Positions 62,127 through 64,000 of a stretch of DNA of 64,000 bases are shown piece after piece (positions within the stretch are counted from its first letter, which is position 1; the number at the start of each line of letters is the position of its first letter). A program made the translations under genes and the position numbers. The DNA is from Terriglobia bacterium (lineage in GTDB: Bacteria; Acidobacteriota; Terriglobia; UBA7540): NCBI GenBank assembly GCA_035945295.1, contig DASZAI010000048.1, positions 1 through 64,000 on the forward strand, read 5' to 3'. A model generated the notes under the pieces. The model ran no database searches, was not told where the DNA came from, and saw only the letters and a program-made list of their open reading frames with translations.

Positions 62127-63683
62127 CTAGGCCCATCGCCCTCGAAGAGGCGAAAGGGGATCAGCCACCGACTGGAAACGGATGAGCCGCACGGCGTCGC
62201 GGTCTTTGAGCGAGACAAGGGGCATAAGGCCCGCTTCGAGCATCTGCTCTGCGGCTTCCTCAGTCAGCAGAACCTCTGCGCAGGGCTTGACGGCCGACTC
62301 GCCATCCTGCTTGAAGACGTGCAATGGCAGCCCGTCGACCTCGGGGTGCGTGCCGGGTCGCATTTCCCAACCGTCATCGCTGAAAGCTCGGGCGAGGAGT
62401 AGCGCGGCCGCAAAAGCCGGATTGCCCCAGAGATATCCGTCATGTGCGGGAGTGCGTGGCATCTCTTCGAAGTCGAACTGCTCCGTCGGATTAGTCTCAC
62501 GCCCGTAAGGAAGGCGCAGCAGAAAGCGTGGCAGACCCAGGCCCGCCCAGCGTGCTTCCGGCAGCCTCCGGAACAGGCGCCATGCTTGGATACCTTCGCT
62601 GCTGTTGTCCGGATGCCAGTCGCGCGCGTCGGGGCTCGCCGCCAGCGACTTGCAGCCCAGAAACTCCGAATCAGCCGCACTCAGAAATGGCGCGCGCGCC
62701 GCTGCCCCAATCATTGCCAGACGGCGTAGCAGCTCGACGTCATCGAGGGTGGGCTCAAAGGTGTAGTTCCCGACCAGCACGCTCCAAGGTTCAGCCCCTG
62801 GCGTTCCGACGGTCTTCTCGACCAGAAGCTCGTAAATGCCCGTCGAGTGGAGATCGTCCGAGGACAGCAGGTCGGCGGCGAGTTCGGTTTTCGACACGTC
62901 GACCAGATAAAGCTTGAGCTGGGGACTGGTCTCGAGCCGGCGGACGAGGAAATCGACTGCGTGCCAAGCTGCCTCAAGGCTCTGAAAGTCGCGGTAGTGC
63001 AGAAGAGCGCGCATCGCGTCGCCGATAGCGCGGTCGACGCGCGCGACCACCTCCGCCTGGCGCGGGTCAGTCCCAAGGACGAGATAGGGTTCGACCACGC
63101 GCTTGACGAACGTCATCAGCTCATCCGGAGCACGGGACGGTCTGCCCTCGGAGGAGCGCGTCTCGGTCTGCTCGATCATCTGGTCGAGCAAGCTCCCTGA
63201 GACGAGCGACTCTGCATCGGGCGGTGCCGGGGGACGGGGCGTCGGCGCTGGCGTAGCCGCGCCCGACGCCGCCGCACCGGCCGGCAGAATCCCCATCTCA
63301 TGGGCAGCCGCTCTAAAGGTTTGGGTGTCCGCCAGCTTCCCGCGCGCCTCCCGCAGCTCACGAAATAGCTCTTCCCGCTCGAAGATGCGGTCGGGATGGA
63401 AATCGTCGAGCTCGATGAAGCGCAGCGTGAAGTCTGAGCCACTCGACAGACTCAGCTTGAGCCCGGCGCCCGCCTTGCCGAGCACTTCCTCGAAATTGTC
63501 GCGGTCGACCATGACGGCTCGGCGCCCGGCTAGCGGCTCCGACCGGCTGCGGTTCGCCCGCCCGCTGAAGTCACCGAAGATGACGATGCGGAACGGCGTC
63601 TCCGGGTCGGGACGCGCCGGGGCTTTCTCGCGGCCAACGGCCACATCAATACCTACCTCACTCAAGGAAGAACGCTTGGCCAT
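62127..63683 (-). CDS. TssB-TssC fusion protein (sheath-like), lacking the TssC C-terminal domain
   Basis: start MAKRSS (AGGAG 9 nt upstream). Residues ~20-110 are homologous to TssB (PFRIVIFGDFSGR...LDDFHPDRI). Ala/Pro-rich linker. Remainder is homologous to TssC from SLLDQMIEQTE through LWGNPAFAAAL and GLMPLVSLKDRD. Ends ~115 aa before the canonical TssC C-terminus. Confidence 0.65.
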   Translation of the reverse strand: MAKRSSLSEVGIDVAVGREKAPARPDPETPFRIVIFGDFSGRANRSRSEPLAGRRAVMVDRDNFEEVLGKAGAGLKLSLSSGSDFTLRFIELDDFHPDRIFEREELFRELREARGKLADTQTFRAAAHEMGILPAGAAASGAATPAPTPRPPAPPDAESLVSGSLLDQMIEQTETRSSEGRPSRAPDELMTFVKRVVEPYLVLGTDPRQAEVVARVDRAIGDAMRALLHYRDFQSLEAAWHAVDFLVRRLETSPQLKLYLVDVSKTELAADLLSSDDLHSTGIYELLVEKTVGTPGAEPWSVLVGNYTFEPTLDDVELLRRLAMIGAAARAPFLSAADSEFLGCKSLAASPDARDWHPDNSSEGIQAWRLFRRLPEARWAGLGLPRFLLRLPYGRETNPTEQFDFEEMPRTPAHDGYLWGNPAFAAALLLARAFSDDGWEMRPGTHPEVDGLPLHVFKQDGESAVKPCAEVLLTEEAAEQMLEAGLMPLVSLKDRDAVRLIRFQSVADPLSPLRGRWA

Positions 63684-63841
63684 GGAGATACGGCTCCTCT
63701 GCCCGAGGGTGCGGCTTCGCGGGTGTCGATTCTTGACGCGCCGCGCTATTATACGCGCGCCGGTCTGCGCCGCCAAAGTAATCTGACACCAAATTTTCCG
63801 GTTTGACTTGACGACGAGACTCTTGCTAGTTTGAAAGACCT

Positions 63842-64000
63842 TATGAGGCGGCTGCAACCCGTTGTCTGGTCCAAAGGAACCTTCCTCAGCCCGCAGCACT
63901 TGCAGGTCCAGGATCGTTTCCTCGAAAGCACGCTCGAGTTCCGGCTCTCCGCCCTAAGCTATCGGCCCTGGGGATTCCGTGAGCTGCGCATCGACCAGGA
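63842..64000 (+). CDS. Second TssK-like baseplate protein (5' partial, runs off window)
   Basis: MRRLQPVVWSKGTFLSPQHLQVQDRFLE parallels the TssK N-terminal motif VVWSEGMYLGPHHFQ; divergently transcribed from the TssBC-fusion gene. Confidence 0.55.

What the first reader, a model, noticed from the sequence alone, without database searches (positions are those of the whole stretch)
62127..64000. Second, non-canonical sheath module: single-gene TssB-TssC fusion lacking the TssC C-terminal domain, divergent from a second TssK
Immediately beyond the canonical tssB-tssC pair, a 518-aa gene encodes TssB-like residues (PFRIVIFGDFSG...LDDFHPD). These are joined by an Ala/Pro-rich linker to a TssC-like body that aligns block-for-block with the neighbouring TssC. 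The gene stops ~115 residues before the TssC C-terminus, the region that contributes the final beta-strand of the inter-subunit handshake in contractile sheaths. A second tssK-like gene starts divergently 160 nt away and continues off-window. This suggests a second contractile-injection or T6SS-related module with a fused, shortened sheath protomer. I do not recognise this architecture as a described T6SS subtype. It could be a regulatory or decoy sheath-like protein, or the start of a distinct T6SS-like system.
Basis: partly seen in the sequence, partly recalled or inferred. Interest (0 to 1): 0.7.

Follow-up and report, generated by a model that had tools for sequence, protein, structure and literature searches.

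The report
Fused, tail-less T6SS sheath paralogue
Next to an ordinary type VI secretion sheath gene pair lies a conserved gene that fuses the small and large sheath proteins but drops the part needed to build a sheath, so it is most likely an unstudied helper of the same secretion machine, not a second machine.

Summary
Window 62127..63683 (-) encodes a 518-aa protein. It has a TssB/VipA-like N-terminal part, an Ala/Pro-rich disordered linker and a TssC/VipB N-domain body. It lacks the C-terminal VipB_2 (gp25-like, handshake) domain. A tssK gene starts divergently 160 nt away and is a genuine second tssK paralogue.

It is not a decayed duplicate. It is only 31-32% identical to the neighbouring TssB and TssC. 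dN/dS is 0.12-0.14. More than 150 cluster representatives (50% identity) end at the same C-terminus. Relatives occur in Acidobacteriota, Desulfobacterota, Planctomycetota, Gemmatimonadota, Nitrospirota, Gammaproteobacteria and Rhodobacterales. The family forms one clade separate from canonical TssC (50/50 bootstraps).

It is not a second sheath module either. Where neighbours are visible it sits inside a single T6SS cluster that also has canonical tssB and tssC.

AlphaFold (pLDDT 85) gives sheath domains 2 and 3 only. A TssC-type N-terminal helix of the kind ClpV binds, and a weak TssB-arm-like N-terminus, survive as conserved islands in the disordered parts.

I read it as a non-polymerising sheath-protomer mimic that docks on the sheath or baseplate and modulates assembly or recycling. 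The function is inferred, not shown. I found no description in the literature, including a 2026 review of T6SS accessory genes.

The parts
62127..63683 (-). Fusion gene (FUS), 518 aa plus stop codon: a TssB-like part, a linker, and a TssC N-domain-like body; no VipB_2 domain.
   Evidence: ORF. Pfam VipA + VipB only. NCBIfam scores are below the TssC and TssB equivalog cut-offs. 100% identical to P0001. dN/dS 0.12-0.14.
63627..63683 (-). Residues 1-19: disordered N-terminus with a weakly conserved 'SFGEvxLDV' motif. It occupies the position of the TssB beta1 donor arm.
   Evidence: pLDDT below 50. Family consensus. hhalign places it opposite TssB 'VQITYDVE' with low per-column confidence.
63276..63626 (-). 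Residues 20-136: TssB/VipA-like part (PFRIVIFGDFSG ... LDDFHPD ... helix).
   Evidence: Pfam VipA E 1.2e-13. 31% identity to the window's TssB. Matches PDB TssB chains. pLDDT 80-98.
63126..63275 (-). Residues 137-186: disordered Ala/Pro-rich linker.
   Evidence: pLDDT 43-51. Low column conservation except at the helix motif.
63162..63197 (-). Residues 163-174, GSLLDQMIEQTE: a conserved helix island inside the linker. [quoted passage not shown]
   Evidence: Conservation island. Same core motif as the cognate TssC helices. Role of the TssC helix from PMC5048182.
62130..63125 (-). Residues 187-518: TssC/VipB N-domain-like body (sheath domains 2 and 3), ending in a conserved G-x-W.
   Evidence: Pfam VipB E 6.5e-73. 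Foldseek matches to 5n8n_B, 3j9g and 5urw at probability 1.0, 312-341 aligned columns, rmsd 2.9-5.2 A. G515 and W517 are nearly invariant.
63748..63776 (-). Sigma-70-like promoter match (TTGGCG-17-TATAAT) in the 160-nt divergent spacer, upstream of the fusion gene.
   Evidence: 1 site found against 0.3 expected. This is a consensus match only.
63844..64000 (+). 5' end of tssK2, the second TssK paralogue; 451 aa in full. It runs off the window.
   Evidence: translation. (full gene on L001; 38.5% identity to TssK1). (T6SS_VasE E 1.8e-140). dN/dS 0.03-0.04.
61242..61781 (-). Canonical tssB, 179 aa.
   Evidence: Pfam VipA full length and TIGR03358 above cut-off. Start as called on L001.
59762..61249 (-). 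Canonical tssC, 495 aa from MGNPQ.
   Evidence: VipB + VipB_2. TIGR03355 scores 734 bits against a cut-off of 271.5.
50413..59667 (-). Rest of the same operon: hcp, tagJ/impE, tssA, tssE, tssF, tssG, clpV.
   Evidence: Pfam.
16777..22644 (+). tssK1-tssL-tssM of the same T6SS. They are separated from the main cluster by about 27 kb of unrelated genes.
   Evidence: Pfam VasE, DotU and IcmF domains.

Best explanation
**What it is (shown).** The gene encodes an intact, selected, anciently diverged paralogue of the T6SS sheath protomer.
- TssB-like and TssC-like parts are joined in one chain.
- The whole inner 'domain 1' is absent. Domain 1 is the gp25-like C-terminal domain of TssC. It carries the two acceptor strands and the C-terminal donor strand of the inter-subunit handshake.
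- What remains are sheath domains 2 and 3.
- The gene belongs to a large family. Where neighbours are visible, the family travels inside ordinary T6SS-i clusters that keep their own canonical TssB and TssC.

**How it most likely works (inferred).**
- Without domain 1 it cannot build or propagate a sheath lattice, and it cannot contact the Hcp tube. It should therefore be a soluble, non-polymerising protomer mimic.
- It keeps the protomer surfaces of domains 2 and 3.
- It keeps a weakly conserved N-terminal segment at the position of the TssB donor arm.
- It keeps the TssC-type N-terminal helix that ClpV uses to recognise contracted sheath in other systems.
- I propose that it docks at an edge of the real sheath. 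The most likely place is the baseplate-proximal end, where TssE (gp25-like) already supplies a domain-1 mimic but no outer layers.
- There it would modulate initiation, stability or termination of sheath polymerisation, and ClpV would recognise it and recycle it with the sheath.
For: **Architecture**
- VipA + VipB without VipB_2.
- Scores fall below both NCBIfam equivalog cut-offs.
- The AlphaFold model has pLDDT 85 and pTM 0.82, with ordered residues 20-136 and 187-518 and disordered residues 1-19 and 137-186.
- The body superposes on solved TssC chains.
- The family profile matches PDB TssC only up to about residue 337-369 of the chains, and TssB up to about residue 125-148.

**Intact and selected**
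- More than 150 representatives of 50%-identity clusters align end to end and stop at the same C-terminus.
- dN/dS is 0.12-0.14.
- No remnant of the C-terminal domain follows the stop codon.

**Single old origin**
- The split between the fusion family and canonical TssC appears in 50 of 50 NJ bootstraps.

**Accessory to one T6SS**
- In L034 and L047 the gene starts 4-10 nt after clpV (stop-to-stop ORF boundaries).

**Loss of polymerisation is expected**
- The handshake uses TssC beta11/12, the TssC C-terminal beta13 and TssB beta1 (PMC5807055).
- C-terminally truncated HsiC1 still binds HsiB1 but forms no tubules (PMC3597794).

**Retained docking motifs**
- The linker helix GSLLDQmIEqTE is a conservation island and matches the cognate TssC N-terminal helix.
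- That helix is the ClpV-binding element in V. cholerae and EAEC (PMC5048182).
- The N-terminal 'SFGEvxLDV' aligns to the TssB beta1 arm.
Against: **No direct evidence**
- There is no experimental or interaction evidence of any kind. The docking site and the effect on the sheath are inferences.

**Weak motifs**
- The N-terminal arm-like motif is only 40-50% conserved. Its alignment to the TssB arm has low confidence.
- The helix motif may be an inherited relic.
- In Phaeobacter the linker motif differs from that of the cognate TssC.
- In TagJ-type systems such as this one, ClpV may not use the TssC helix in the V. cholerae way (PMC5048182).

**Context gives no fixed partner**
- About 25 of the 80 scanned loci show no other T6SS gene within 10 kb.
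- One such gene lies among housekeeping genes.
- The gene's position within clusters varies: next to tssB, after tssM, or after clpV. No single partner is implied.

**Faster evolution**
- It evolves 3-4 times faster than TssB or TssK2. A rigid structural subunit would be expected to be more constrained.
Confidence: 0.4

Rival explanations
1. Soluble ClpV (or TagJ) adaptor or decoy. The protein never joins the sheath. Through its exposed TssC-type helix and domain 3 it binds the ClpV N-domain. This either titrates ClpV away from uncontracted sheath or pre-loads ClpV near the machine, and so tunes disassembly and recycling.
For: - The helix motif is conserved within an otherwise variable disordered linker.
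- In several Desulfobacterota loci the gene follows clpV directly, with a gap of 4-10 nt.
- It lies between clpV and vgrG in Rhodobacterales.
- In a free protomer the helix would be permanently exposed, whereas in extended sheath it is thought to be buried (PMC5048182).
Against: - A decoy would need only the helix. Yet the whole domain 2 core, including the PRFLLRLPYG and YLWxN motifs shared with TssC, is the most conserved part.
- Adjacency to clpV is not universal.
- There are no binding data.
Confidence: 0.25
2. Spike or cargo-related adaptor. The protein works with VgrG or effectors, for loading or as a carrier, and not with the sheath. The variable C-terminal tails of some members would be functional extensions.
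For: - The gene lies immediately upstream of vgrG in at least 8 loci from several phyla.
- Rhodobacterales members carry long variable C-terminal tails and reach 1,100 aa.
- Some copies are orphans, as with hcp and vgrG islands.
Against: - No toxin or adaptor domain was detected. Pfam finds only VipA and VipB.
- The Terriglobia members, including this one, end right after the sheath fold.
- No sheath domain is known to bind VgrG.
Confidence: 0.1
3. The fusion and tssK2 begin a second, distinct contractile or T6SS-like system that has its own fused, shortened sheath protomer.
For: - A second tssK does exist.
- The fusion is a separate, deeply diverged lineage.
Against: - The 10 kb beyond the window holds only tssK2, unrelated small genes, one vgrG, a HEAT-repeat gene, an FHA gene and a kinase gene. 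There is no second tssE/F/G, hcp, tssL/M or clpV.
- In relatives, tssK2-tssK1-tssL-tssM form one operon.
- The fusion sits inside single clusters that have canonical tssB and tssC.
- Without domain 1 no contractile lattice can form (PMC5807055; PMC3597794).
Confidence: 0.03
4. A degraded duplicate (pseudogene) of tssB-tssC, or an assembly or frameshift artefact.
For: It lies next to tssB-tssC and is collinear with them.
Against: - Identity to the neighbours is only 31-32%.
- The same ORF is found in independent assemblies.
- Hundreds of full-length homologues have the same end point.
- dN/dS is 0.12-0.14.
- No C-terminal remnant is present.
Confidence: 0.01

Closest known systems
Canonical T6SS sheath protomer TssB/TssC (VipA/VipB, HsiB1/HsiC1)
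   Same: - Homologous, collinear sequence (31-32% identity).
- The same domain 2 and domain 3 fold.
- The same core motifs: GDFSG, LDDFHPD, EAAWR, PRFLLRLPYG, YLWGN.
- A TssC-type N-terminal helix.
   Different: - One polypeptide instead of two.
- The C-terminal third of TssB is replaced by a disordered linker.
- The entire TssC C-terminal gp25-like handshake domain (VipB_2) is missing.
- It scores below the NCBIfam equivalog cut-offs.
- It evolves 3-4 times faster.
- It always sits in a separate clade.
ImpD / TssC40 (Atu4340) of Rhizobium and Agrobacterium, the known second TssC paralogue. It is required for Hcp secretion and is not redundant with TssC41 (PMC3702570).
   Same: - An extra TssC-family gene inside a TagJ/Fha/PpkA-type T6SS cluster, alongside canonical TssB and TssC.
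- About 32% identity over the VipB domain.
   Different: - ImpD keeps VipB_2.
- ImpD lacks the TssC N-terminal region.
- ImpD has no TssB part.
- This is the opposite truncation, so it is a different paralogue.
Laboratory C-terminal truncations of sheath proteins: HsiC1(1-212) with HsiB1, and soluble gp18 fragments
   Same: Removing the C-terminal region gives a protein that still forms the TssB-TssC unit but cannot make tubules (PMC3597794). The same behaviour is expected for this natural protein.
   Different: - Those are artificial constructs.
- This one is a naturally selected, fused, widely distributed gene.
Multiple sheath paralogues of extracellular contractile injection systems (Afp2/3/4, Pvc2/3/4)
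   Same: More than one sheath-family protein in one machine, with position-specific roles near the baseplate.
   Different: - From my own knowledge, not tested here: those paralogues keep the conserved handshake core and are built into the lattice.
- Foldseek matches of the model to them are weak (E 0.01 or weaker).
Full-length TssB-TssC single CDS annotated in Ralstonia solanacearum SL3022 (CP023017, 646 aa)
   Same: TssB and TssC in one reading frame.
   Different: - It has VipA + VipB + VipB_2 at full canonical scores.
- It is the cluster's only sheath gene.
- It is therefore a fused or mis-joined canonical pair, not a member of this family.

Membership tests
TssC, T6SS contractile sheath large subunit (TIGR03355 equivalog; Pfam VipB + VipB_2) | VipB N-terminal domain present | tested here: met
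   PF05943, E 6.5e-73, profile positions 2-300 of 301.
TssC, T6SS contractile sheath large subunit (TIGR03355 equivalog; Pfam VipB + VipB_2) | C-terminal gp25-like handshake domain (VipB_2) present | tested here: not met
   No PF18945 hit. The TIGR03355 match stops at model position 354 of 473. The AlphaFold model ends after domain 2. There is no remnant downstream of the stop.
TssC, T6SS contractile sheath large subunit (TIGR03355 equivalog; Pfam VipB + VipB_2) | Score above the curated equivalog cut-off | tested here: not met
   249.8 bits against a cut-off of 271.5. The neighbouring TssC scores 734.1.
TssC, T6SS contractile sheath large subunit (TIGR03355 equivalog; Pfam VipB + VipB_2) | Polymerises with TssB into a contractile tubule around Hcp | not testable with these tools
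   Expected to be negative, from PMC5807055 and PMC3597794. This needs biochemistry.
TssB, T6SS sheath small subunit (TIGR03358) | Full-length VipA domain above the curated cut-off | tested here: not met
   50.5 bits against a cut-off of 97.25. Only profile positions 23-128 of 160 are matched. The C-terminal third is replaced by the linker.
ImpD/TssC40-type second TssC | VipB + VipB_2 without a TssB part and without the TssC N-terminal helix | tested here: not met
   Rhizobium ImpD architecture compared with this protein.
Unnamed 'T6SS contractile sheath domain-containing protein' family (VipA-linker-VipB, no VipB_2) | Collinear VipA + VipB architecture ending about 10 residues after the VipB domain | tested here: met
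   All 120 of the first search and most of the 120 best homologues of the second search carry PF05591 + PF05943 (the rest are annotated with PF05943 alone), and none carries PF18945. More than 150 representatives align up to query residue 517/518. Rhodobacterales members carry additional variable C-terminal tails after this end point.
Unnamed 'T6SS contractile sheath domain-containing protein' family (VipA-linker-VipB, no VipB_2) | Forms one clade separate from canonical TssC of the same clusters | tested here: met
   NJ tree on 303 columns. The split appears in 50 of 50 bootstraps.
Unnamed 'T6SS contractile sheath domain-containing protein' family (VipA-linker-VipB, no VipB_2) | Encoded within a T6SS-i cluster that also has canonical tssB and tssC | tested here: met
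   True in the window. Among relatives it holds in the loci where neighbours are visible. About 25 of 80 loci are solitary within 10 kb either side.
Independent second T6SS or contractile injection system | Own set of tube, baseplate and membrane or anchor genes | tested here: not met
   Only tssK is duplicated. The other core genes I identified in the window and in L001 each occur once.

The most novel reading that the evidence does not exclude
The fusion protein is the missing outer half of a 'ring zero' on the baseplate.
- Six copies would sit on the six TssE (gp25-like) subunits. TssE supplies the domain-1 mimic and the fusion supplies domains 2 and 3.
- Together they would present a complete pseudo-sheath ring that templates the first true TssBC ring.
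- In Acidobacteriota and Gemmatimonadota this collar would be held by the dedicated TssK2 paralogue, one of the two TssK trimers per wedge.
- This would define a structurally distinct T6SS-i baseplate variant.
- It would also explain why exactly domain 1 was lost.
Probability: 0.12. Interest if true: 0.8.

Novelty: new variant of a known kind. Interest (0 to 1): 0.6.

Why it matters
The T6SS sheath is thought of as a two-protein polymer, and the list of accessory factors is still growing. This gene belongs to a large family that occurs in many phyla and is under selection. The family keeps the outer two domains of the sheath protomer and has removed precisely the domain that makes the lattice and touches the tube.

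If it acts on sheath initiation, termination or ClpV recycling, it would be a natural, built-in modulator of sheath dynamics. That would be a useful handle on how polymerisation starts and stops, a point that remains incompletely resolved.

It is also a naturally soluble, single-chain domain 2+3 protomer, which is convenient for structural and binding work.

Cultivable carriers exist among the Roseobacter group (Phaeobacter, Leisingera, Ruegeria), where the gene lies on T6SS plasmids. The question is therefore testable.

Automatic annotation currently calls many members 'contractile sheath large subunit'. That label is misleading and can distort T6SS counting and TssC phylogenies.

Tried and rejected
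**Pseudogene or frameshift.** Rejected on dN/dS, the conserved end point and the absence of a C-terminal remnant.

**Same as ImpD/TssC40.** Rejected. ImpD keeps VipB_2 and lacks the TssB part.

**A separately encoded VipB_2 domain nearby (split gene).** Isolated C-terminal TssC fragments appeared only in loci where canonical tssC is visibly broken by frameshifts, L007 and L056.

**A single fixed partner gene from synteny.** None emerged.
- Adjacency to tssK2, tssM, clpV, vgrG and a Ser/Thr kinase each recurs, but none is universal.
- All-against-all clustering of the neighbours was dominated by shadow ORFs of these GC-rich genomes. It gave no new conserved partner.

**Solitary copies.** They lie among housekeeping or unannotated genes and gave no functional hint.

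**Sigma-54 promoter in the spacer between the fusion gene and tssB.** No match.

**Literature.** Searches on terms for TssB-TssC fusion, truncated TssC, sheath-like protein and second TssK found nothing relevant. A 2026 review of T6SS accessory genes does not list such a protein.

**Complex prediction.** I did not try it (fusion with ClpV-N, TssE or TssK2).
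Full report
**1.

The minus-strand ORF 62127..63899 has its family-consistent start at the ATG at 63683, with an AGGAG about 10 nt upstream. This gives a 518-aa protein identical to the database protein P0001 from a Terriglobia metagenome-assembled genome.

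- Pfam finds T6SS_VipA at residues 24-121 (E 1.2e-13).
- Pfam finds the VipB N-terminal domain at residues 211-506 (E 6.5e-73).
- It finds no VipB_2. The adjacent canonical TssC has both VipB and VipB_2, and the adjacent TssB is a full VipA.
- Under NCBIfam, the protein scores below the curated cut-offs of both the TssC and the TssB equivalog models.

It aligns collinearly with the neighbouring TssB (31% identity, residues 9-119 against 24-138). It also aligns with the neighbouring TssC (32% identity, residues 147-509 against 32-400 of the 523-aa ORF). About 123 C-terminal TssC residues have no counterpart.

The 345 nt after the stop codon hold no remnant of that domain.

On the other strand, a gene opening MRRLQPVVWSKGTFLSPQH starts at 63844, exactly 160 nt from the fusion's start.

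**2. The surroundings: one T6SS, with two TssK**

Downstream on the minus strand lie tssB, tssC, hcp, tagJ/impE, tssA, tssE, tssF, tssG and clpV, from 61781 down to 50413.

A tssK-tssL-tssM block lies at 16777..22644 on the plus strand. About 27 kb of unrelated genes separates it from the main cluster.

An overlapping public contig, L001, is 100% identical over 3,450 nt and extends the view by 10 kb. The divergent gene there is a full 451-aa TssK (VasE E 1.8e-140). It is followed by an AlkZ-like gene, small genes, DUF922, vgrG, a HEAT-repeat gene, an FHA gene and a Ser/Thr kinase.

No other core gene that I identified is duplicated.

**3. A large, old, selected family**

- The first protein search returned 120 full-length hits of about 510-530 aa. 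All carry PF05591 + PF05943, and the named ones come mostly from Terriglobia.
- An exhaustive HMMER search returned at least 150 representatives of 50%-identity clusters. Most of them align from near the N-terminus to query residue 517/518, so the end point is conserved.
- A tblastn search of plasmids found 35-37%-identical members on T6SS plasmids of Phaeobacter, Leisingera and Ruegeria. A search seeded with one of these found hundreds more in Rhodobacterales. Many have long variable C-terminal tails, and none has VipB_2.
- A scan of one genome per species found 586 relatives. The best 80 come from Acidobacteriota (Terriglobia, Bryobacterales, Pyrinomonadaceae, Blastocatellia), Desulfobacterota, Nitrospiraceae, Planctomycetota, Binatia, Gemmatimonadota, Rokubacteria and Gammaproteobacteria.
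- On the shared VipB domain, the fusion proteins form one clade apart from the canonical TssC of the same clusters. The split appears in 50 of 50 NJ bootstraps, and the fusion branches are longer.
- Against two 80-83%-identical orthologues, dN/dS is 0.12-0.14. For TssB and TssK2 in the same genomes it is 0.03-0.04.

The gene is therefore functional and under purifying selection, but it is less constrained than the core parts.

**4. Genomic context across the family**

I labelled neighbours with profiles built from the window's own T6SS proteins. Three placements recur:

- In Terriglobia, the fusion gene sits at the head of tssB-tssC-hcp-tagJ-tssA-tssE-tssF-tssG-clpV. It is often divergent from tssK2-tssK1-tssL-tssM or from a kinase gene.
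- In Bryobacterales and others, it sits at the end of tssK2-tssK1-tssL-tssM, often followed by a kinase gene.
- In Desulfobacterota and Rhodobacterales, it sits between clpV and vgrG. In two loci it starts 4-10 nt after clpV (stop-to-stop ORF boundaries).

Canonical tssB and tssC are present wherever enough of the cluster is visible. About 25 of the 80 loci show no other T6SS gene within 10 kb. One of these copies lies among priA, argS, a SPOR-domain gene and asmA.

The two TssK genes are orthologous pairs across Acidobacteriota and Gemmatimonadota. Rhodobacterales clusters that carry the fusion have a single tssK. TssK2 is therefore not an obligate partner.

**5. Structure**

AlphaFold2 was run with a 103-sequence family alignment and gave pLDDT 85 and pTM 0.82.

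- Residues 20-136 (TssB-like) and 187-518 (TssC-like) are ordered.
- Residues 1-19 and 137-186 are disordered.
- Foldseek places the body on solved TssC chains of P. aeruginosa, V. cholerae and M. xanthus: probability 1.0, 312-341 aligned columns, rmsd 2.9-5.2 A.
- The family profile matches solved TssC sequences only up to about residue 337-369, and TssB up to about residue 125-148.

In the published sheath structure, the inner domain 1 holds the handshake. Two TssC strands (beta11 and beta12) accept the C-terminal strand of a neighbouring TssC and the N-terminal strand of a neighbouring TssB. Domain 2 is the interlaced TssB/TssC sheet. Domain 3 is the outer helical bundle (PMC5807055).

The fusion protein therefore equals domains 2 and 3 in one chain, with the whole of domain 1 removed. 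Experimentally, HsiC1 lacking its C-terminal part still binds HsiB1 but forms no tubules (PMC3597794).

**6. Conserved islands in the disordered parts**

Column conservation is low in residues 1-30 and 131-190, except at residues 161-170.

Across 82 members from many phyla, this island reads [G/S]xLL[D/E]Q[I/M][I/L]E[Q/E]TE. [quoted passage not shown] That helix is the element bound by the ClpV N-domain in V. cholerae and enteroaggregative E. coli. Binding modes differ between T6SS classes, especially those with TagJ (PMC5048182).

The extreme N-terminus carries a weaker motif, SFGEvxLDV. Profile-profile alignment places it opposite the TssB beta1 arm (VQITYDVE), but with low confidence and after a 10-residue deletion.

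The very C-terminus ends in a nearly invariant G-x-W.

**7. Interpretation**

*Shown:* the gene is an intact, selected, monophyletic sheath-protomer paralogue without domain 1. Where neighbours are visible, it is encoded inside single T6SS clusters that keep canonical TssB and TssC.

*Inferred:*

- It cannot form or extend a sheath lattice and cannot contact Hcp.
- It keeps the protomer's domain 2 and 3 surfaces, perhaps one donor arm, and a helix of the ClpV-binding type.
- My preferred model is that it docks at an edge of the real sheath and modulates assembly or stability, while remaining a ClpV client.
- The most likely site is over TssE at the baseplate, because TssE mimics only domain 1.

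The main rival is a purely soluble ClpV adaptor or decoy. A role with VgrG or cargo is less likely. A second independent system and a pseudogene are effectively excluded.

**8. Comparison with what is known**

- The closest characterised relatives are canonical TssB and TssC. The protein fails their membership tests on the C-terminal domain and on the curated score cut-offs.
- The known extra TssC of Rhizobium and Agrobacterium (ImpD/TssC40) is required for Hcp secretion (PMC3702570). It has the opposite architecture, VipB + VipB_2 with no TssB part, so it is a different paralogue.
- A 646-aa TssB-TssC CDS annotated in one Ralstonia strain is a full canonical pair in one frame and is unrelated to this family.
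- Databases give the family only generic names: 'type VI secretion system contractile sheath domain-containing protein' or 'TssC1 N-terminal domain-containing protein'.
- Full-text searches and a 2026 review of T6SS accessory genes gave no description of it. The library does not hold most subscription journals, so an earlier mention cannot be excluded.

**9. Verdict**

The feature is real and not an artefact. The 'second module' idea is wrong, and the 'regulatory or decoy sheath-like protein' idea stands. I rate it a new variant of a known kind. It is of moderate to high interest because the family is large, phylogenetically broad, precisely truncated and unstudied. The mechanism is still inference.

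Noticed in passing
window 16777..18132 (+) and 63844..64000 (+, continues off the window; full gene on L001 8486-9841): Two TssK paralogues, 38.5% identical to each other. The K2-K1 pair is orthologous across Acidobacteriota and Gemmatimonadota and often lies in tandem ahead of one tssL-tssM. TssK2 is under strong purifying selection (dN/dS 0.03-0.04); TssK1 was not tested. Each baseplate wedge carries two TssK trimers, so the paralogues might have specialised for the two positions. I found no description of this.
   Followed up: partly
window 22700..50400: The T6SS genes are split. About 27 kb of unrelated genes lies between tssM and clpV. These include a class-V aminotransferase, an MnmA-like tRNA methyltransferase, a TPR Ser/Thr kinase, TonB and POTRA proteins, MacB/FtsX permeases, and a type III-like restriction-modification set (methylase 48512..49468, an ORF6N-domain gene 47044..47610, Res helicase-endonuclease 44455..47040). 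In relatives, tssK2-tssK1-tssL-tssM abut the fusion gene directly.
   Followed up: no
window 61782..62126 (-), the spacer between the fusion gene and tssB: A 345-nt spacer of similar length occurs in relatives (356-394 nt). Its 3' half is conserved and includes a CGAAAACCCCTTGACA block about 200 nt upstream of tssB. This suggests that tssB has its own promoter with a long leader, so the fusion gene may be transcribed separately. No sigma-54 consensus and no terminator-like hairpin was found.
   Followed up: partly
L003 14815-16725 (Phaeobacter sp. G2 plasmid) and proteins P0121-P0240: Rhodobacterales members of the family carry long, variable C-terminal tails with no Pfam domain, for total lengths of 540-1,100 aa. 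Some sources label them 'FimV'. The tails begin exactly where the Terriglobia proteins end (after G-x-W).
   Followed up: no
L002 14980-16920 (Ralstonia solanacearum SL3022, CP023017): A 646-aa CDS covers full TssB + TssC (VipA, VipB, VipB_2) in one frame. tblastn alignments also ran straight through the tssB-tssC junction in Yersinia and Phyllobacterium plasmids, so the two genes are often in the same frame. This is either a real read-through fusion or an annotation or sequencing artefact.
   Followed up: no
L062 9911-11524, L039 9980-11452 and about 25 other loci: Solitary copies of the fusion gene with no T6SS gene within 10 kb. In a gammaproteobacterial genome, one lies between priA/argS/a SPOR-domain gene and asmA. 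In a Bryobacterales genome, one follows an OmpA-family gene and precedes three large genes with no Pfam match.
   Followed up: partly
L001 4350-4937 and L069 2-406: In L001, L088 and L089 a DUF922-family gene sits just upstream of vgrG on the same strand; in L069 (a Rokubacteria locus) it lies about 7 kb from vgrG on the opposite strand. It may be a T6SS cargo or effector candidate.
   Followed up: no
L005, L012, L013, L017, L022, L029, L032, L071, L076, L086, L087 and others: A Ser/Thr protein kinase gene is the most frequent immediate neighbour of the fusion gene (18 loci). The fusion's disordered linker is rich in Thr, Ser and Pro. A link to the threonine-phosphorylation control of T6SS (PpkA/Fha) is conceivable but untested.
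   Followed up: no
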